A stretch of 51,324 nt of DNA, taken from sequence record OR896833.1. One strand, given 5' to 3'. This stretch comes from Escherichia phage WaterSpirit. Shown piece by piece: positions 16,136-24,724 of this stretch. The stretch's first letter is position 1. Every line of letters starts with the position of its first letter. The notes beneath the pieces were generated by a model, which was given only the letters and a program-made list of their open reading frames with translations, did no database searches and was not told where the DNA came from. Made by a program: the position numbers and the translations under genes.

Positions 16136-19100
16136 ATGGCTAAAAATATTATAACTGGCAGTAAGGGTGGGTCGAAAAAACCTTACGTGCCTAAAGAGCT
16201 TGAAGATAACCTGATTTCAATAAACAAAATTAAAATCCTGCTTGCCGTATCCGATGGTGAGTGTGACGCGGATTTCTCATTACGTGATCTGTATCTTGAT
16301 GATGTTCCGGTTATCGCTGACGACGGAACTGTAAACTACCCAGGCGTTAAAGCAGAGTTTAGGCCAGGAACGCAGGATCAGGAATACATTCAGGGTTTTA
16401 CTGACACGTCAAACGAGGTGATCATCAATCGAGATTTGACTACAAATACGCCATATGTTTTGTCGGTAACGAATAAGACGCTTTCCGCAATACGCATCAA
16501 AATGCTAATGCCAGTGGGTATTAAGCAGGAGGATAACGGCGACTTGGTGGGCGTTACCGTTACATATGCAGTTGATATGGCGGTTGATGGTGATTCATAC
16601 AAAGAAGTAATGATCGACACCATTAACGGCAAGACGCGCACCGGATACGACCGTAGCCGACGCATTGACTTGCCGAAATTCAATGAGCGTGTTTTGCTTC
16701 GCGTTCGCCGCGTTACGCCTGACAGCACAACGTCGAAGGTTACAGACCTGATCCGCATACAGAGTTACGCCGAGGTAATTGATGCAAAATTCCGTTACCC
16801 TCTGACTGGGCTTGTTTACGTCGAGTTTGACAGCGAACTGTTCCCTAACCAGATCCCTAACATTTCAATTAAAAAGAAATGGAAGTTGATTCAGGTTCCC
16901 AGCAATTACGATCCTGTATCTCGTCGGTATTCTGGAACATGGGACGGAACATTTAAAAAAGCGTGGTCAAATAATCCGGCATGGGTTCTTTACGATTTGG
17001 TTACTAATCAGCGTTATGGACTTGATCAACGAGAATTGGGAATACAGATCGACAAGTGGAGTCTATACGAGGCTGGGGTGTATTGTGATCAGATGGTTCC
17101 AGATGGCAAGGGAGGAACAGAGCCGCGCTACCTATGCGATATGGTGATTCAAAGCCAGATTGAGGCTTATCAGCTTATTCGTGACATTTGCTCAATCTTC
17201 CGAGGAATGACTTTTTGGAATGGCGAGAGCTTGTCTGTAGTGGTGGATAAACCGCGCGAGCCATCATACATCTTTACAAACGACAACGTAATTAATGGAG
17301 ATTTTCAGTACACGAGCGCCAGCGAAAAGAGCATGTACACTCAATGCAACGTTACGTTTGACGATGAGCAAAACATGTATCAACAGGACGTTGAGGGCGT
17401 ATTTGACACTGAGGCGGCGTTACGTTTTGGCTACAATCCAACAAGTATCACGGCGATTGGTTGTACCCGTCGAAGCGAAGCGAATCGACGCGGACGCTGG
17501 ATACTGAAAACCAACCTGCGCAGCCAAACGGTAAACTTTGCCACCGGGCTGGAAGGGATGATCCCATCTATCGGTGACGTTATCGCGATTTCTGATAACT
17601 TCCTGAGCAGCAACTTAACGCTCAACCTATCAGGGCGCGTAATGGAAGTTTCCGGCTTGCAGGTATTCGTTCCGTTTAAGATTGACGCTAGACCAGGTGA
17701 TTTCATTATCATCAACAGACCGGACGGAAAACCAGTTAAGCGCACAATCTCAAAAGTCAGCGCGGACGGAAAAACCATTGAGTTAAACGTAGGGTTCGGA
17801 TTCGACGTAAAACCGGACACCGTATTTGCAATCGACCGAACAGACCTTGCGTTGCAACAGTACGTTGTAACAGGAATCAGCAAGGGTGACACTGAGGAAG
17901 AATTTACCTACTCGATTACGGCGGTTGAATACGATCCTAACAAATACGACGAAATTGATTATGGCGTAAACATTGATGATCGTCCGATCTCAATCGTGCA
18001 GCCGGACATCATGCAAGCACCGGAAAATGTTCAGGTGTCATCATACTCCCGTGTTGTCCAGGGTGTTAGCGTTGAGACGATGGTTGTGTCGTGGGATAAA
18101 GTGCCTTATGCGTCACTGTATGAAATGCAATGGCGAAAAGGTGATGGCAACTGGCTAAATACGCCGCGCACAGCGAACAAAGAGACGGAAGTAGAAGGAA
18201 TTTATTCAGGGAACTATCAAGTAAGGGTCAGATCTGTTTCAGCTTCCGGCAGTACATCAGCATGGTCGAAGATTGCAACAGCTTCCCTGACTGGTAAAGT
18301 TGGCGAGCCAGGCGCGCCAGTTAACTTAACCGCATCAGATAATGAAGTTTTCGGCATTCGTATTAAATGGGGCATGCCAGAAGGAAGCGGAGACACGGCC
18401 TACATTGAGCTTCACCAGTCGCCAGACGGAACGGTTGAAAACTCAAGCCTGTTAACGCTGATCCCATACCCGCAATATGAATACTGGCACAGTACACTAC
18501 CAGCGGGTCAAGTTGTCTGGTATAGAATCCGCAGCGTTGACAGAATCGGCAACGTTTCTAGCTGGACTGATTTTGTTCGTGGCATGGCATCAGATGATGT
18601 TGAATCTGTTTTAGGAGATATTCTTGATAAGATTTTTGATAGCGAAGCAGGGCAAGAAATCAAGGAGAACGCCATCGAAAGCGCGAACAAGATCAAAGAC
18701 CAGGCGCAGGCAATAATCCAGAACGCTTTGGCGATTGACGCTAACTTGAAATGGACGCGAGTACAGAACGGAAAGCGAAAGGCTGAATATGGTCATGCTG
18801 TTCAGTTGATCGCAAATGAGACTGAGGCGCGAGTAACTCAAATCGAAGAATTGAGGGCTTCAATTGATGGCGAGATAACATCAAGCATCAAGACAGTGCA
18901 GGAGGCAATCGCCACTGAATCAGAGACACGAGCAACTCAAATTCAGCAGCTTGATTCTAAATTCACAAAAGAAATTGACGGCGTGCGAAAGGATACTTCT
19001 GCAAGCATTAGCGATGTAAGGCAGACAATCACTAACGAGTCAGAAGCGCGAGCGCAAGCGGTACAACAGCTTGATGCAAAATTCACCAAAGAGATTAACG

Positions 19101-19714
19101 ATCTCAATGATGCAATCAAGGTTGACGTTGAGGCCAGCATTTCCGAAGTGAGACAAGCTATCGCCAACGAGGAGGAAGCGCGAGTACAAGCTGATCAGGC
19201 ATTAACAGCACGATTTGGAGACGTTGAATCTGCATTGGTTGAAAAGTTGGATTCTTGGGCGAGCGTTGATTCAGTTGGTGCTAAGTACGCTATGAAACTT
19301 GGCCTTACTTACAAAGGACAGCAGTACAGCGCAGGAATGGTAATGCAGCTTTCGCAGGGTTCATCCGGTCTTATCTCGCAAATTTTGTTTGATGCTAACA
19401 GGTTCGCCATTATGACTAGCTCTACTGGAGGGACTTTCACTTTGCCTTTCGTGGTTGAGAATAATCAGGTTTTCATTAATAGTCTTTTGGTGAAGAACGG
19501 ATCAATCACTAATGCGATGATTGGTAATGTGATTCAGTCAAACAACTTTGTTCAAAACCAGCAAGGATGGAGGCTTGATAAAAACGGAATCTTTGAGAAT
19601 TACGGATCAACGACAGGAGAAGGAGCTACTAAATTCACCAATGAGGGATTGAAGGTAAAAGATGCAAACGGAGTATTGAGGGTTGAAGTCGGAAGGATTA
19701 CCGGAAGCTGGTAA
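16136..19714 (+). CDS. Host specificity / central tail fibre protein J-like
   Basis: 1192 aa; size, position after I, internal ~40-aa tandem repeats near C-terminal third. Confidence 0.9.
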   Translation: MAKNIITGSKGGSKKPYVPKELEDNLISINKIKILLAVSDGECDADFSLRDLYLDDVPVIADDGTVNYPGVKAEFRPGTQDQEYIQGFTDTSNEVIINRDLTTNTPYVLSVTNKTLSAIRIKMLMPVGIKQEDNGDLVGVTVTYAVDMAVDGDSYKEVMIDTINGKTRTGYDRSRRIDLPKFNERVLLRVRRVTPDSTTSKVTDLIRIQSYAEVIDAKFRYPLTGLVYVEFDSELFPNQIPNISIKKKWKLIQVPSNYDPVSRRYSGTWDGTFKKAWSNNPAWVLYDLVTNQRYGLDQRELGIQIDKWSLYEAGVYCDQMVPDGKGGTEPRYLCDMVIQSQIEAYQLIRDICSIFRGMTFWNGESLSVVVDKPREPSYIFTNDNVINGDFQYTSASEKSMYTQCNVTFDDEQNMYQQDVEGVFDTEAALRFGYNPTSITAIGCTRRSEANRRGRWILKTNLRSQTVNFATGLEGMIPSIGDVIAISDNFLSSNLTLNLSGRVMEVSGLQVFVPFKIDARPGDFIIINRPDGKPVKRTISKVSADGKTIELNVGFGFDVKPDTVFAIDRTDLALQQYVVTGISKGDTEEEFTYSITAVEYDPNKYDEIDYGVNIDDRPISIVQPDIMQAPENVQVSSYSRVVQGVSVETMVVSWDKVPYASLYEMQWRKGDGNWLNTPRTANKETEVEGIYSGNYQVRVRSVSASGSTSAWSKIATASLTGKVGEPGAPVNLTASDNEVFGIRIKWGMPEGSGDTAYIELHQSPDGTVENSSLLTLIPYPQYEYWHSTLPAGQVVWYRIRSVDRIGNVSSWTDFVRGMASDDVESVLGDILDKIFDSEAGQEIKENAIESANKIKDQAQAIIQNALAIDANLKWTRVQNGKRKAEYGHAVQLIANETEARVTQIEELRASIDGEITSSIKTVQEAIATESETRATQIQQLDSKFTKEIDGVRKDTSASISDVRQTITNESEARAQAVQQLDAKFTKEINDLNDAIKVDVEASISEVRQAIANEEEARVQADQALTARFGDVESALVEKLDSWASVDSVGAKYAMKLGLTYKGQQYSAGMVMQLSQGSSGLISQILFDANRFAIMTSSTGGTFTLPFVVENNQVFINSLLVKNGSITNAMIGNVIQSNNFVQNQQGWRLDKNGIFENYGSTTGEGATKFTNEGLKVKDANGVLRVEVGRITGSW

Positions 19715-19740
19715 AAAAGGGGGCATAGCCCCCTTTAATT
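19713..19740. terminator. Bidirectional intrinsic terminator (A6-GGGGGC-ATA-GCCCCC-T-rich)
   Basis: Hairpin flanked by A-run and T-rich run between convergent J and minus-strand operon. Confidence 0.7.
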
Positions 19741-20355
19741 TTAATCATAGTGTGATGCATTTATAACCAAAACAGATGAAGCGGTGTAAATACCAACTGG
19801 GCCAGGAGTTTGTGCAACTTGCCTAGAGAAAGAATATACACCGTTGCCATACGCAGCAGCCTGAGATTCAAATATCATGAATCCACCTAAAGCCGGATTA
19901 GGAACAGAGTTTAACGCTGTCAGTGATGGCATTATGGCGCAAGGGTATCCCAAATTAACATCAAACGCGATCCCGCTTACGCCTACTTGCTTTGCATCTA
20001 GCGGCCTCATTTTTCCATGATAAACCATTTCACCATGAGCATTATAAAACGCTATGCCGTGACTACCTGGGGGAGTCACCATATTACTAAAAGCATAAAC
20101 AATAACCTCACCCTGATTATCAGATCTATCAAGTCTTATTGCGTGCCTTCCACCATTGTTAAATTGCGTGAATGATATGTATGATTTAGCGGTCAATCTA
20201 ACAAAGAAAAAACATACCCTATCAACAGTAATTGACGAAGTAAAAACGGTTCCAGTATTAGCAGATATTACGGCACGATCAATTAGATTAACCGGAGTGA
20301 AATCTGGGCTTAACCATAATGATCCGTCTGGTTTTTTTATGCTCATCCCGTACAT
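19741..20355 (-). CDS. Putative receptor-binding / distal tail protein (204 aa)
   Basis: ATG 20355 is 2 nt after upstream TGA (TGAtaATG); last gene of lipoprotein operon adjacent to J. Function inferred from position only. Confidence 0.3.
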   Translation of the reverse strand: MYGMSIKKPDGSLWLSPDFTPVNLIDRAVISANTGTVFTSSITVDRVCFFFVRLTAKSYISFTQFNNGGRHAIRLDRSDNQGEVIVYAFSNMVTPPGSHGIAFYNAHGEMVYHGKMRPLDAKQVGVSGIAFDVNLGYPCAIMPSLTALNSVPNPALGGFMIFESQAAAYGNGVYSFSRQVAQTPGPVGIYTASSVLVINASHYD

Positions 20356-20357
20356 TA

Positions 20358-20636
20358 TCACCCCCAAAAAGTATATATATATCTTGAATCAGATCCAGAA
20401 AGTCCACTCCATGTAACGGTGTCGCCACTTACTCCTAAGCTTGGTGCGCCAGGGTCGCCACCGCGCCAGGAATTCATGCCAACATATATTGCTTTCAATG
20501 ATTTACCTGGCGGCCTGTTTTGGTAAGTCTTGCTACCTGATGGCTGAGTGAATTTATCAAGAAAGAAAACAGGCGTTAAAAGTCCTGTAACTTCCCTTCC
20601 TCGATCGTCATATATTGCATAACCATATTGCGCCAT
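20358..20636 (-). CDS. Hypothetical protein (92 aa), Gly/Ser-rich
   Basis: ATG overlaps lipoprotein stop (TAATG coupling); RBS GAGGTG. Confidence 0.3.
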   Translation of the reverse strand: MAQYGYAIYDDRGREVTGLLTPVFFLDKFTQPSGSKTYQNRPPGKSLKAIYVGMNSWRGGDPGAPSLGVSGDTVTWSGLSGSDSRYIYTFWG

Positions 20637-20905
20637 TAATTACACCTCAAATCAATAAATTTACTTTCATTTTGCCAGCGGTTGATAAATTTAACTTCTT
20701 TATTGTCAACGCTCAACCTGTATTGCTTTTGGCTGAATCTGTTTTCGCGTACTGCATTAATTTTGACTTCATGGAATCCGTTAACAGGGAATGTTTTAAC
20801 GTTAAATTTTGCCGTGCAATCGATCTTTTTGAAGCCGCCAGTAGGCGACGATGCGCATCCGGTCAGAGCGGCTACGGTGGCGATAACTGCGATTAATTTT
20901 TTCAT
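20636..20905 (-). CDS. Lipoprotein, putative superinfection-exclusion (Cor/Llp-like by position)
   Basis: 89 aa; signal peptide with lipobox LTGC; strong RBS AAGGAGA; first gene of operon next to tail fibre genes. Confidence 0.55.
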   Translation of the reverse strand: MKKLIAVIATVAALTGCASSPTGGFKKIDCTAKFNVKTFPVNGFHEVKINAVRENRFSQKQYRLSVDNKEVKFINRWQNESKFIDLRCN

Positions 20906-20936
20906 CTTTGTATCTCCTTAGTTGTTGTTGTTTCCA

Positions 20937-20978
20937 ACTATACACGATCTTGAACATCGAGTTTAGCAAAAAGTGCTA
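20937..20978 (-). promoter_or_regulatory. 18-bp element (TAGCACTTTTTGCTAAAC) + 18-nt spacer + TATAGT, upstream of lipoprotein operon
   Basis: Minus-sense read of 20961-20978 matches the conserved element; TATAGT at 20937-20942 (minus sense). Confidence 0.4.
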
Positions 20979-21360
20979 TTTGTTTTTTCTGTTCTCGCTT
21001 GTTATCAAATTCACACCTCCTTAATTTTAGCGCAAAACTTAAACACCAACTGGACAAACAATAGACAGTAAAATCATCTATATACATAAAAAATAAAGAG
21101 TTTATTTATCTATGTATCTATATTTGTTTTTATTTGTTCTCTGTGTTTCATTGGGTTGTGGTGTGTAGCATGTTTGGTGAGTGTATTGATTTATGTAATT
21201 ACAGATGCTCACTGGGTATTGCATATGTATGTATAAAGCTGAGTAGATACGCGAACGCGAGAACAGAAAAATAACAACCTTGATATTCAATCACTTATAA
21301 TCAGATTTTGTTCTTAAGCCCAAAAGAAGCGTTTAGAAAACAGAAAAAACAAATCACCTA

Positions 21361-21388
21361 TTGACTAAACGCATCAAATAGCTAAAAT
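21361..21388 (+). promoter_or_regulatory. Sigma70-like early promoter (TTGACT-16-TAAAAT)
   Basis: Direct read; homologous to the promoter at 42457-42484. Confidence 0.55.
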
Positions 21389-21417
21389 GCAGGCATACCA
21401 ACCAATGAGGGCTAATC

Positions 21418-22479
21418 ATGAATAAATTTATGGCTTACACCAGCGCAGAAATGAGCAACGAGCTTTATCACGATCCAGAAGCATGGACGGCTGAATATGT
21501 TAGCGGTTCAAGTCTGGCAGAGATTTACAGCACTTGCCCTGCTGCCTGGAAGTTCAAGCCGCGCGACGATAAGAGCAAGGCGCTCGTTTTCGGTACGCAG
21601 TCGCATACCAACTTCGAAAGCAAGGAGCTATTTGATAAAACTTACCGCCGTGCGCCAGCGCCGGAAGACTTCAAAGAGTTGATCACAAGCCAAACGGCAT
21701 TGGCTGCAAAGCTGAAATCTTTTGGCCTGAAAGGGACAAGCGGAAAGACTTACCCCGACCTTATCAAAATGATGGTTGATTGTGGCGAAGACCTTAACAT
21801 CATGTGGTTAATCGACATGATCGCAGAAAGCCAGGCCAGAGCCGACGGCGTACAGTTAATCGACGCGAAAGATTACGATGCTTGCGTTGCAATGCGCCAG
21901 GTTTTGGAATCAATACCGGAGCATAACGCTTGTATGAACAGCACAACGGCGCAGCGTGAATTATCGCTGTTCGGTGAAATTAACGGCGTAAAAGTTAAAG
22001 TGCGATGCGACCATGTAGACGTAGTGAAAAACGTCACTGCAACGCTGATTGATGGTTATGATGAAAAAGGTCAGCCCATTTGTCGTGATATTGTTTATCC
22101 AGAAGCAGTGGTGATCACAGACTACAAAACAACAATGAGCGCAAATCCTATGGAGTTTATGCGACTGGCTTACAACCACGGTTATTATTTGAAAATGGCA
22201 CTGCAACATGATTTATTCAGGAAGGCATATCCAGATGAGAAGCGACCTGTAGTTATGCGCCTGTTAGCACAGGAGAAGAAGGAGCCTTATCTACCGCTGG
22301 CTTTCCGCATGAACAGCGAGCAATTGAAAATAGGCCGAGTCCAGTATGTTAGCGTGATCCAACAGTTTGCTATGTGCCAGCAGCATGACGTATGGCCTGC
22401 GTATTCAAACGGTGAGCCGGAAGTTTGCTTGGATACGCCGGAATTTGTGCGCCGACAGTTCAAGCAGTATTTGATTTAA
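21418..22479 (+). CDS. Recombination exonuclease (PD-(D/E)xK-type, RecE/YqaJ-like)
   Basis: 353 aa; ITDYKT motif region typical of this nuclease fold; followed by Erf-like and SSB genes. Confidence 0.55.
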   Translation: MNKFMAYTSAEMSNELYHDPEAWTAEYVSGSSLAEIYSTCPAAWKFKPRDDKSKALVFGTQSHTNFESKELFDKTYRRAPAPEDFKELITSQTALAAKLKSFGLKGTSGKTYPDLIKMMVDCGEDLNIMWLIDMIAESQARADGVQLIDAKDYDACVAMRQVLESIPEHNACMNSTTAQRELSLFGEINGVKVKVRCDHVDVVKNVTATLIDGYDEKGQPICRDIVYPEAVVITDYKTTMSANPMEFMRLAYNHGYYLKMALQHDLFRKAYPDEKRPVVMRLLAQEKKEPYLPLAFRMNSEQLKIGRVQYVSVIQQFAMCQQHDVWPAYSNGEPEVCLDTPEFVRRQFKQYLI

Positions 22480-24004: not shown

Positions 24005-24030
24005 GCCCCGCATATGCGGGGCATTTTTTT
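24005..24030. terminator. Bidirectional intrinsic terminator (GCCCCGC-ATAT-GCGGGGC + T7)
   Basis: Perfect palindrome flanked by A-run and T-run between convergent operons. Confidence 0.75.
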
Positions 24031-24724
24031 AGTCTAACGTGGTTGGTTTGTTTACCAGTGCCGCTACAACCGCTTTTAGCTCGTCAATTTCTTTTCTCAT
24101 CTCCTCATTTTCCGCTTTCAGTTTCTTAACGTGGTGAATCAGTGGAACAGTGAGGCGGTCATACATAACGCCTTCCGCCACCATGCCATTACTTGAAGCA
24201 ATGGCAGGATCTTCTCCTTCTTGCAGCGGTCGCCAGTGAACGTACTCCGGCGCAACCTCTCCAACTTCCTCTGCAATCAGTCCGTACCATCCCCAATCTT
24301 TACGGTCGCTTTCACAAGTTGACCGATACCACACAGGACGCATTTCAAGCATCAGATCCGCATATTCATCAATAACCGATTCTACGCTGCACTTATAACG
24401 AGAAGAGGAAGTGGAGCGTAAAACTTGCGACACTCCAGCATTTGGATCAAGCCATAAGTTTGCTGATTGAGCGGTTGTGTTAAGATTAAATAAATAAAAT
24501 GCATCGTAACCAGTTAGGGGGTAAAAACTCCCACTATACCTTCCGCTATCCAACTCGGATGATAGATCAGTTTGTTTTAGATACGGTTTCAACTTATTGT
24601 CAACATCAGTAGTTGATGCTTTTCCGGCAACATCCTGTTTTATTGTCGAAACATCCTGTTTTATCGTAGAAACATCATTTTTCAGCTTCGTTATATCAGT
24701 AGGTATAACAGTTACTGTAGCCAT
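24029..24724 (-). CDS. Putative tail fibre-associated protein (231 aa) with C-terminal coiled coil
   Basis: N-terminal short repeats (DVSTIKQDVSTIKQDV), C-terminal heptad segment; downstream of tail fibre gene on same strand. Confidence 0.3.
   Translation of the reverse strand: MATVTVIPTDITKLKNDVSTIKQDVSTIKQDVAGKASTTDVDNKLKPYLKQTDLSSELDSGRYSGSFYPLTGYDAFYLFNLNTTAQSANLWLDPNAGVSQVLRSTSSSRYKCSVESVIDEYADLMLEMRPVWYRSTCESDRKDWGWYGLIAEEVGEVAPEYVHWRPLQEGEDPAIASSNGMVAEGVMYDRLTVPLIHHVKKLKAENEEMRKEIDELKAVVAALVNKPTTLD

What the first reader, a model, noticed from the sequence alone, without database searches (positions are those of the whole stretch)
19741..20905. Three-gene minus-strand operon next to J: likely host-range and superinfection-exclusion locus
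The operon is translationally coupled throughout (TAATG and TGAtaATG junctions). Its first gene encodes a small lipoprotein with lipobox LTGC, the classic position for Cor/Llp-type receptor-masking proteins. The two downstream proteins (92 and 204 aa) are candidate receptor-binding or distal tail proteins. In T1-like phages this position is where receptor specificity varies most, so these genes may define an uncharacterised receptor pairing.
Basis: partly seen in the sequence, partly recalled or inferred. Interest (0 to 1): 0.5.

Follow-up and report, generated by a model that had tools for sequence, protein, structure and literature searches.

The report
BtuB-type host-recognition cassette of a T1-like phage

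Summary
Three minus-strand genes (89-aa lipoprotein, 92 aa, 204 aa) lie at 19741-20905 with overlapping or near-overlapping junctions, convergent on the J tail-tip gene.

The window is a Warwickvirus (Drexlerviridae). Its three proteins are 97.8%, 100% and 98.5% identical to bas04_0025, bas04_0024 and bas04_0023 of BASEL phage FritzSarasin (Bas04), whose terminal receptor was determined experimentally as BtuB. Bas06 (also BtuB) carries the same cassette. A Warwickvirus studied by TraDIS needs BtuB, SdaC and DcrB.

The lipoprotein has the Llp/Cor architecture: lipobox, a conserved cysteine pair and a small beta-barrel. Its mature part shows no sequence similarity to Cor. Its exclusion function is inferred, not shown.

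The 92-aa protein (PHROG 557) is an accessory protein of unknown role.

The exchangeable module runs from about 19,550 (the last ~55 codons of J) to about 20,850 (the signal-peptide codons of the lipoprotein gene).

Verdict: already known, low interest.

The parts
16136..19714 (+). J-like central tail fibre / tail-tip protein (1192 aa). It is the trimeric shaft onto whose C-terminal tip the RBP is thought to dock.
   Evidence: ORF; annotated 'J-like tail tip protein' or 'tail protein' in Bas04, Bas05 and tonn; aligned with T1 gp33.
19520..19714 (+). The last ~55-65 codons of J. This tip segment co-varies with the RBP allele and forms the left boundary of the exchangeable cassette.
   Evidence: Nucleotide identity to the FhuA-type Warwickvirus Bas05 is 98-100% from 18558 to 19517, then falls to 82, 73, 63 and 40% up to 19757. 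Identity to the BtuB-type Bas04 rises to 90-95% from 19552. At protein level the last 50 aa match Bas04/tonn, not Bas05/T1.
19716..19736 (.). GC-rich hairpin between the convergent J and RBP genes; a probable bidirectional intrinsic terminator.
   Evidence: Terminator scan. On the minus strand the stem GGGGGC-TAT-GCCCCC is followed by TTTTTT.
19741..20355 (-). 204-aa receptor-binding protein candidate, BtuB-type ('hand-like' RBP; PHROG 425; public annotation 'membrane associated protein').
20358..20636 (-). 92-aa accessory protein (PHROG 557; public annotation 'outer membrane protein'). Its role is unknown; it may be an assembly factor or adaptor for the RBP.
   Evidence: PHROG 557 E=4e-20. 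100% identical to bas04_0024. Same family as T1 gp32, 933W p64 and the JenP2 93-aa protein. No hydrophobic segment. Shares the N-terminal YG...D/N..G motif with the RBP.
20636..20905 (-). 89-aa lipoprotein precursor (signal peptide plus lipobox LTGC; 73-aa mature part). Candidate receptor-masking superinfection-exclusion protein for BtuB.
20852..20905 (-). Signal-peptide codons of the lipoprotein gene; right boundary of the exchangeable cassette, where homology with FhuA-type phages resumes.
   Evidence: blastn of window vs Bas05 resumes at 20852. Alignment and sliding identity. BLASTP between this lipoprotein and T1 Cor aligns only residues 1-21.
20906..21417 (.). 512-bp AT-rich divergent intergenic region between the lipoprotein gene and the RecE-like exonuclease gene. 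It presumably holds the promoter of the three-gene operon. The Shine-Dalgarno AAGGAG is at 20919-20914.
   Evidence: Sequence. The promoter scan found only a plus-strand site at 21361-21388 and none on the minus strand at its threshold.

Best explanation
This is the BtuB allele of the modular receptor-specificity locus that small siphoviruses (Drexlerviridae and relatives) carry next to the J tail-tip gene.

Proposed mechanism, with shown and inferred steps marked:
1. Inferred from fold, family and homologues: the 204-aa protein is a soluble all-beta receptor-binding protein. One copy caps the C-terminal tip of the J trimer. Its conserved N- and C-termini, and the co-varying last ~55 residues of J, form the docking interface. 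Its variable middle binds extracellular loops of the TonB-dependent vitamin B12 transporter BtuB. That binding gives irreversible adsorption and triggers DNA ejection.
2. Role unknown: the 92-aa protein is a soluble accessory protein of the same module. It is most likely an assembly factor or adaptor for mounting the RBP on J.
3. Inferred by analogy with T5 Llp/FhuA and Rtp45/LptD: the 89-aa lipoprotein is exported, lipidated at Cys17, and sorted to the inner leaflet of the outer membrane (Ala at +2). A Cys30-Cys88 disulphide ties together the ends of its mature domain. It binds the periplasmic face of BtuB and locks the receptor in a conformation the RBP cannot bind. This would protect the infected cell from superinfection and protect progeny from inactivation on cell debris.
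4. Shown by sequence comparison: the module from about 19,550 to about 20,850 is exchanged as a unit. The conserved flanks are the body of J and the signal-peptide codons plus upstream region of the lipoprotein gene. A swap of this unit switches a Warwickvirus between FhuA (T1-like arrangement, Bas05) and BtuB (this arrangement, Bas04 and the window).
For: Receptor: the three proteins are 97.8%, 100% and 98.5% identical to bas04_0025/0024/0023. BASEL S5 Table lists BtuB as the terminal receptor of Bas04 and Bas06. Bas06 has the same three-gene minus-strand cassette, at 54, 72.5 and 64% identity. Phage Arnold is 97% identical to G3B1, and G3B1 carries a 98%-identical 204-aa protein. Arnold requires BtuB by TraDIS and knockout. 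Warwickviruses JLBYU01/07/10/16/19/26, which carry this allele, are not FhuA-dependent.

J tip co-variation and cassette boundaries; the same point was made independently in the 2026 preprint.

Lipoprotein: lipobox; invariant Cys pattern like Llp Cys11-Cys58; a small-barrel fold that superposes on Llp; strict co-occurrence with the RBP allele. Structural precedents exist for periplasmic SE lipoproteins encoded in this locus and in T5.
Against: No experiment on this phage or on any BtuB-type Drexlerviridae protein shows RBP-BtuB binding or lipoprotein-mediated exclusion. The published support for the RBP-BtuB contact is AlphaFold3 modelling.

Sequence similarity of the 204-aa protein to the Oekolampad RBP is undetectable, and the global TM-score is low at 0.27-0.32.

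The window's RBP differs from Bas04's at three residues.

No promoter was found for the operon.
Confidence: 0.85

Rival explanations
1. The 92-aa and 204-aa proteins are host-membrane proteins that work with the lipoprotein as part of the exclusion machinery. [quoted passage not shown]
For: PHROG/RefSeq names. The KanT1 authors assumed a Sie-related role because of the association with cor. All three genes sit in one apparent operon with the lipoprotein.
Confidence: 0.04
2. The receptor is recognised by the C-terminal tip of J itself. The 204-aa protein would then be only an assembly chaperone or tip cap that is not the specificity determinant.
For: The last ~55 residues of J co-vary with the locus. 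In TolC-, LamB- and NupG-specific relatives, distal J domains carry the specificity.
Against: The co-varying J segment is short and stays 69% identical between FhuA and BtuB types, whereas the 204-aa proteins are only ~25% identical. The fold homologue from Oekolampad binds its receptor directly in a cryo-EM structure. The phi24B needle tip was judged too simple a surface to bind BamA.
Confidence: 0.06
3. This allele targets a receptor other than BtuB. One candidate is BamA, because the nearest non-Drexlerviridae relatives (44-45% identity) are the gp54-type proteins of BamA-dependent Stx phages.
For: The 204-aa protein is 44-45% identical to 933W p65 and about 41% to the JenP2 protein, against about 25-29% to the FhuA-type proteins. 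Lewis et al. listed Warwickvirus receptors as unknown in 2023. The window's RBP differs from Bas04's at three residues.
Against: Bas04 (98.5% identical RBP) and Bas06 were assigned BtuB using knockout strains. Arnold's btuB knockout is fully resistant. An essential receptor such as BamA would not give that result.
Confidence: 0.04
4. The lipoprotein is not a receptor-masking exclusion factor. It would instead have another envelope role, such as a lysis accessory or a moron affecting the host.
For: The mature part has no sequence similarity to Cor or Llp. The fold match to Llp is not specific. Weak signal-peptide-level hits to spanin families appear in PHROGs.
Against: It co-varies strictly with the RBP allele across genera. 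It occupies the position of cor in FhuA-type relatives. It has the same lipobox plus terminal-cysteine-pair architecture as Llp and Cor. The lipoproteins encoded in this locus (Rtp45) and in the analogous T5 locus (Llp) were shown structurally to bind the periplasmic face of the receptor.
Confidence: 0.1

Closest known systems
[quoted passage not shown] 2021, PMC8594841)
   Same: Same position, gene order, orientation and junctions. Proteins are 97.8, 100 and 98.5% identical to Bas04 and 54, 72.5 and 64% identical to Bas06. Both phages have BtuB as their terminal receptor by experiment.
   Different: Two to three amino-acid differences in the lipoprotein and the RBP relative to Bas04. The body of the window's J protein is that of a Bas05-like (FhuA-type) phage and 51 aa longer than Bas04's J.
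T1 gp32 / gp31 / Cor (also N15 gp22/gp23/Cor, ES18 gp30/gp31/gp32, Bas05): the FhuA allele of the same locus
   Same: Same three gene families by profile (PHROG 557, 425 and nominally 1119). Same location between J and the recE-like gene. The lipoprotein gene is on the minus strand next to the same intergenic region. N- and C-terminal motifs of the RBP are conserved.
   Different: The receptor is FhuA rather than BtuB. Pairwise identity is only ~25-30%, with no significant BLAST hit. The small-plus-large gene pair is co-oriented with J in T1 but inverted here. The mature lipoproteins are unrelated in sequence.
RBP of phage Oekolampad (Bas18) bound to LptDE (PDB 9RPT chain C), and the SE lipoprotein Rtp45 (bioRxiv 10.1101/2025.07.07.663478)
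   Different: The receptor is LptD, which is not a TonB-dependent transporter. The protein is 254 aa, 16% identical, with no detectable sequence similarity. Rtp45 acts by steric displacement of loops rather than the plug-mediated allostery expected for a TonB-dependent transporter.
phi24B gp54/gp55 (= 933W p65/p64), the proposed BamA-binding tip of short-tailed Stx phages
   Same: The closest relatives outside Drexlerviridae, at 44-45% (large protein) and 52% (small protein) identity over the full length. Same small-then-large gene order after the central fibre gene. gp54 is in the virion proteome.
   Different: Podovirus tail needle rather than siphovirus J. The receptor is BamA. No adjacent small lipoprotein; lom follows instead.
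T5 pb5 / Llp (FhuA) and BF23 Hrs / Llp (BtuB)
   Same: Same logic: a monomeric RBP on a trimeric central fibre, plus an adjacent small lipoprotein that blocks a TonB-dependent transporter from the periplasm. A cysteine pair ties together the ends of the lipoprotein. The small-barrel fold superposes on Llp at 2.4 A over 49 residues.
   Different: The RBPs are unrelated (pb5 is ~640 aa). No sequence similarity between the lipoproteins. The genomic location differs (upstream of the terminase genes in T5-like phages).

Membership tests
BtuB allele of the small-siphovirus RBP locus downstream of gpJ (Maffei 2021; 2026 receptor-prediction preprint) | [quoted passage not shown] | tested here: met
   The J stop is at 19714 and the stop of the 204-aa gene is at 19741, in convergent orientation. 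The layout is the same in Bas04 and Bas06.
BtuB allele of the small-siphovirus RBP locus downstream of gpJ (Maffei 2021; 2026 receptor-prediction preprint) | RBP more than 30% identical over more than 99% coverage to RBPs of phages with experimentally determined BtuB dependence (the family criterion quoted) | tested here: met
   98.5% identical to Bas04 and 64% to Bas06 over all 204 residues. Receptors are taken from BASEL S5 Table.
BtuB allele of the small-siphovirus RBP locus downstream of gpJ (Maffei 2021; 2026 receptor-prediction preprint) | The phage itself depends on BtuB for infection | not testable with these tools
   Needs plating on a btuB deletion strain with complementation. The nearest evidence is Bas04, Bas06 and Arnold.
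PHROG 425 / PHROG 557 pair (T1 gp31/gp32, N15 gp23/gp22, 933W p65/p64) | Full-length profile match of the large and the small protein, encoded as an adjacent small-then-large pair next to the central fibre gene | tested here: met
   E=7e-49 (residues 1-204 on profile positions 3-224 of 224) and E=4e-20 (residues 3-92 on positions 2-92 of 100). The reference proteins hit the same PHROGs. Context is shown.
Oekolampad-type RBP fold (PDB 9RPT chain C) | Structural similarity of the predicted fold well above background | tested here: met
Oekolampad-type RBP fold (PDB 9RPT chain C) | Detectable sequence homology | tested here: not met
   Neither phmmer nor a profile search of PDB sequences finds 9RPT at E<=10.
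Cor superinfection-exclusion lipoproteins (PHROG 1119; T1, phi80, N15) | Signal peptide with lipobox, small size, and a gene adjacent to the RBP genes | tested here: met
   LTGC lipobox and 73-aa mature part. The gene occupies the position of cor in Bas05 and T1.
Cor superinfection-exclusion lipoproteins (PHROG 1119; T1, phi80, N15) | Sequence similarity of the mature domain to Cor | tested here: not met
   The PHROG 1119 hit (E=5.6e-8) is lost when residues 1-17 are removed. BLASTP against T1 Cor aligns residues 1-21 only.
Cor superinfection-exclusion lipoproteins (PHROG 1119; T1, phi80, N15) | Expression excludes phages that use the cognate receptor | not testable with these tools
   Requires expression in E. 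coli followed by challenge with BtuB-dependent phages and colicins.
T5 Llp-type receptor-blocking lipoprotein | Small beta-barrel fold with a disulphide tying together the termini of the mature protein | tested here: inconclusive

The most novel reading that the evidence does not exclude
The FhuA-, BtuB-, BamA(Stx)- and LptD-specific tip proteins, described in a 2026 preprint as 'unrelated families', may be one divergent superfamily. It would be built from a repeated beta-domain that starts with a YG...D/N..G hairpin. The small accessory protein would be a single-domain paralogue of that repeat, possibly competing for or preparing the same docking site on the J tip. Receptor switching would occur by swapping a cassette whose recombination anchors are the J body and the signal-peptide codons of the exclusion lipoprotein gene.
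Probability: 0.35. Interest if true: 0.4.

Novelty: already known. Interest (0 to 1): 0.2.

Why it matters
In practice the window's phage can be predicted to use BtuB, and probably SdaC and DcrB for DNA entry as its relative Arnold does. That prediction is useful for designing phage cocktails and for anticipating resistance through btuB loss.

The locus is a compact, well-bounded module of about 1.3 kb, which makes it suitable for engineering receptor swaps.

What is still missing for the BtuB allele is direct biochemistry. RBP-BtuB binding, the role of the 92-aa protein, and the lipoprotein's proposed periplasmic blocking of BtuB all remain untested. BtuB would be a second TonB-dependent-transporter example after Llp-FhuA.

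None of this is a surprise to specialists.

Tried and rejected
1. BamA as receptor. The 44-45% identity to the Stx-phage protein and the 2023 statement that Warwickvirus receptors are unknown suggested an essential receptor. I rejected this once the 98.5-100% identity to Bas04 and its BtuB assignment were found, together with Arnold's btuB knockout resistance.

2. Cor family membership of the lipoprotein. The PHROG 1119 hit turned out to rest on the signal peptide only.

3. Pfam. No family matched the 92- or 204-aa proteins. The lipoprotein gave only sub-threshold hits to LPAM_1 and DUF6491.

4. Sequence searches of PDB with single proteins and with profiles gave nothing significant.

5. Pairwise BLASTP to T1 gp31 and gp32 was not significant. 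The relationship shows up only through profiles.

6. The promoter scan found no minus-strand sigma-70-like promoter for the operon.

7. The hhalign comparison of the RBP family with the small-protein family gave only a weak local match (probability 18%). The paralogy idea therefore rests mainly on motif recurrence.

I could not measure the Cys30-Cys88 distance or the domain boundaries in the models.

Full report
**Observation**

- 20905..20636 encodes an 89-aa protein, MKKLIAVIATVAALTGC..., with lipobox LTGC at residues 14-17.
- 20636..20358 encodes a 92-aa protein.
- 20355..19741 encodes a 204-aa protein, counted from the ATG. The mechanical ORF list extends it to a TTG at 20367.

The junctions are TAATG and TGAtaATG, as described. 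Each start is preceded by a Shine-Dalgarno-like sequence. The operon converges on the J-like tail-tip gene (16136..19714, 1192 aa). A GC-rich hairpin at 19716-19736 lies between the two stop codons and is followed by a T-run on the minus strand.

The genes are under purifying selection. Against phage Bas04 the 204-aa gene differs at 35 synonymous and 3 nonsynonymous codons. Co-transcription and translational coupling are inferred from the layout. No minus-strand promoter was detected in the 512-bp upstream intergenic region.

**What the window is**

Megablast of the region finds 67 phage records, all T1-like coliphages, at 80-98% identity. The annotated relative tonn is classified as Drexlerviridae, Tempevirinae, Warwickvirus. 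[quoted passage not shown]

**Families**

Against PHROGs:
- The 204-aa protein matches phrog_425 over its full length (E=7e-49).
- The 92-aa protein matches phrog_557 (E=4e-20).
- The lipoprotein matches phrog_1119, 'Cor superinfection exclusion protein' (E=5.6e-8).

Pfam has no family for the two larger proteins. T1 gp31, gp32 and Cor, 933W p65/p64 and the JenP2 pair fall in the same PHROGs. Pairwise BLASTP to the T1 proteins is nevertheless not significant.

The window therefore carries the same three gene families as the classical T1/N15/ES18 locus. That locus reads J -> small -> large, <- cor. Here the small-plus-large pair is inverted and lies on the same strand as the lipoprotein gene.

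The Cor hit does not survive scrutiny. With the signal peptide removed there is no Cor match, and BLASTP to T1 Cor aligns residues 1-21 only.

**Receptor**

tblastn shows that the 204-aa protein is 98.5% identical to a gene of BASEL phage FritzSarasin, Bas04 (MZ501069, Warwickvirus). The 92-aa protein is 100% identical and the lipoprotein 97.8% identical to their Bas04 counterparts.

The BASEL S5 Table lists BtuB as the terminal receptor of Bas04. The paper states that Drexlerviridae receptors were determined with single-gene mutants, and that allelic variants of the locus downstream of gpJ match the receptor.

Further evidence points the same way:
- Bas06 KarlJaspers (Hanrivervirus, BtuB) has the same three-gene minus-strand cassette, at 54, 72.5 and 64% identity.
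- Bas05 PeterMerian is also a Warwickvirus but uses FhuA. It has the T1-like arrangement with unrelated alleles, about 26-33% identical.
- Phage Arnold is 97% identical to Warwickvirus G3B1, and G3B1 carries a 98%-identical 204-aa protein. Arnold needs BtuB, SdaC and DcrB by TraDIS and knockouts.
- Lewis et al. found Warwickviruses JLBYU01/07/10/16/19/26 not to be FhuA-dependent. All of these carry this allele.

The pairing is therefore BtuB, and it is already characterised at the phage level. The 2026 KanT1 paper even notes a BtuB-using Tempevirinae species with a Cor-like protein and the 'membrane-associated protein'. Its HMM missed the small protein, which is clearly present here.

**The 204-aa protein as RBP**

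It has no signal peptide and no TM-like segment, so the 'membrane' annotation is unfounded.

Outside Drexlerviridae the closest relatives are the 205-aa proteins of short-tailed Stx phages, at 44-45% identity. The phi24B copy, gp54, was detected in the virion proteome, and extra density is seen at the tip of the central needle. Matusiak et al. (2025) modelled these 'hand-like' proteins as monomers capping the trimeric spike tip and contacting FhuA or BamA. The 2026 receptor-prediction preprint treats the locus-encoded proteins as bona fide RBPs and modelled Bas06's protein with BtuB.

These lines make the RBP role very likely, but none is a direct experiment on a BtuB-type protein.

**Module boundaries**

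The window's J protein is a mosaic.
- Its nucleotide identity to the FhuA-type Bas05 is 98-100% from 18558 to about 19517. It then collapses across 19520-19757.
- Its identity to the BtuB-type Bas04 rises to 90-95% from 19552.
- At protein level the last ~50 residues match Bas04 and tonn, not Bas05 or T1.
- On the other side, homology with Bas05 resumes at about 20852, inside the signal-peptide codons of the lipoprotein gene, and continues into the intergenic region.

The exchangeable specificity cassette is therefore about 19,550-20,850. It holds the J tip, the RBP, the accessory protein and the mature part of the lipoprotein. This also explains why the only Cor-like part of the lipoprotein is its signal peptide. 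The co-variation of the J tip fits the idea that the tip provides compatibility with the RBP.

**The lipoprotein**

Thirteen homologues share an invariant lipobox Cys17 and two further invariant cysteines, C30 and C88, which are mature positions 14 and 72 of 73. This pattern parallels the Cys11-Cys58 disulphide that ties together the ends of T5 Llp. T1 Cor has the same pattern (sequence). Residue +2 is Ala, which by the established Lol-sorting rule predicts outer-membrane localisation.

The lipoprotein occurs only in phages that carry the BtuB-type RBP, and it diverges in step with it. Precedents exist for the proposed mechanism:
- Rtp45, encoded in this very locus type, binds the periplasmic side of LptDE.
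- BF23, a BtuB-dependent T5-like phage, also has a non-homologous receptor-blocking lipoprotein.

Exclusion through BtuB masking is thus the best-supported inference, at about 0.7, but it has not been shown.

**The 92-aa protein**

It is soluble and conserved with the RBP in FhuA-, BtuB- and Stx-type loci. Others have modelled it as Ig-like. It was not detected in phi24B virions.

It shares a YG...D/N..G N-terminal motif with the RBP, and the RBP repeats that motif near residue 100. The motif occurs 21 times in 16 proteins against 2.3 expected in shuffles. hhalign aligns RBP residues 98-118 with residues 3-22 of the small protein, but weakly (E=0.0013, probability 18%). This hints that the small protein is a single-domain paralogue of a repeated RBP domain. 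Its role, whether adaptor, chaperone or placeholder, remains open.

**Comparison and verdict**

The locus is a member, at 98-100% protein identity, of the already described BtuB allele of the small-siphovirus RBP/SE locus. It works like T5 pb5/Llp and Oekolampad RBP/Rtp45 without being a sequence relative of either.

The suggestion of an uncharacterised receptor pairing is not supported.

Minor additions from this analysis:
- the fold link between the BtuB-type and LptD-type RBPs
- the precise cassette boundaries
- the finding that 'Cor' homology is confined to the signal peptide
- the repeated motif shared by the RBP and the accessory protein

Interest is low, at 0.2.

Noticed in passing
window 18558-19757 (3' part of the J gene) and 20852-21450: J is a recombinant. 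Its body is 98-100% identical at nucleotide level to the FhuA-type Warwickvirus Bas05, while its last ~55 codons and the downstream cassette are of the BtuB type. Homology with Bas05 resumes inside the signal-peptide codons of the lipoprotein gene. This bounds a swappable module of about 1.3 kb.
   Followed up: yes
window 20358-20636 and 19741-20355 (proteins); also L005 28607-29601, L004 5678-6645, L007 8051-8956: A YG...D/N..G motif recurs at the N-terminus of the small protein, the N-terminus of the RBP, and near residue 100 of the RBP, in FhuA-, BtuB- and Stx-type loci. It occurs 21 times against 2.3 expected in shuffles, with a weak hhalign match. This suggests an internal duplication in the RBP and paralogy with the accessory protein.
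   Followed up: partly
window 20636-20905: The PHROG 'Cor superinfection exclusion protein' hit for the lipoprotein is carried entirely by the signal peptide and lipobox. The mature domain has no detectable similarity to Cor. Automatic 'Cor' labels on such genes should be read as 'lipoprotein in the cor position'.
   Followed up: yes
window 19741-20636; L001 6142-7037; L002 5768-6618: [quoted passage not shown] Neither protein has a signal peptide or a hydrophobic segment. The large protein has the fold of a solved phage RBP.
   Followed up: yes
window 20906-21417: A 512-bp AT-rich divergent intergenic region lies between the lipoprotein gene and the RecE-like exonuclease gene. The scan finds a good plus-strand promoter-like site (21361-21388, TTGACT-16-TAAAAT) but none for the minus-strand operon. 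A 49-aa ORF (20938-21087, minus strand) lies here. Some relatives annotate extra hypothetical genes under the 1.5-kb query, which may correspond to this ORF.
   Followed up: no
phage records MG065643, MG065649, MG065657, MG065680, MG065681: Five 49,946-bp records labelled 'Campylobacter phage' with host Campylobacter jejuni carry this coliphage-type BtuB cassette, with RBP 64% and lipoprotein 51% identical. The host label looks doubtful for a Drexlerviridae-like genome.
   Followed up: no
L002 5768-5995 (933W ST933Wp64): The annotated 75-aa 933W small protein starts at 'VLTPVFFLD' and lacks the conserved N-terminal M..YG.A.YD..G.DVTG segment present in all other family members. The annotated start may be too far downstream, or the gene may be 5'-truncated.
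   Followed up: no
window 24029-24724 (minus strand): This 231-aa ORF contains a tandem 'DVSTIKQ DVSTIKQ' repeat near its N-terminus. It lies where Bas05 annotates a putative lateral tail fibre chaperone, next to the lateral tail fibre locus, which is the other hypervariable host-range region of these phages.
   Followed up: no
P0032: A 66%-identical homologue of the 92-aa protein is annotated in an E. coli genome on a 206-kb contig. This implies prophage-borne copies of the module in E. coli chromosomes.
   Followed up: no
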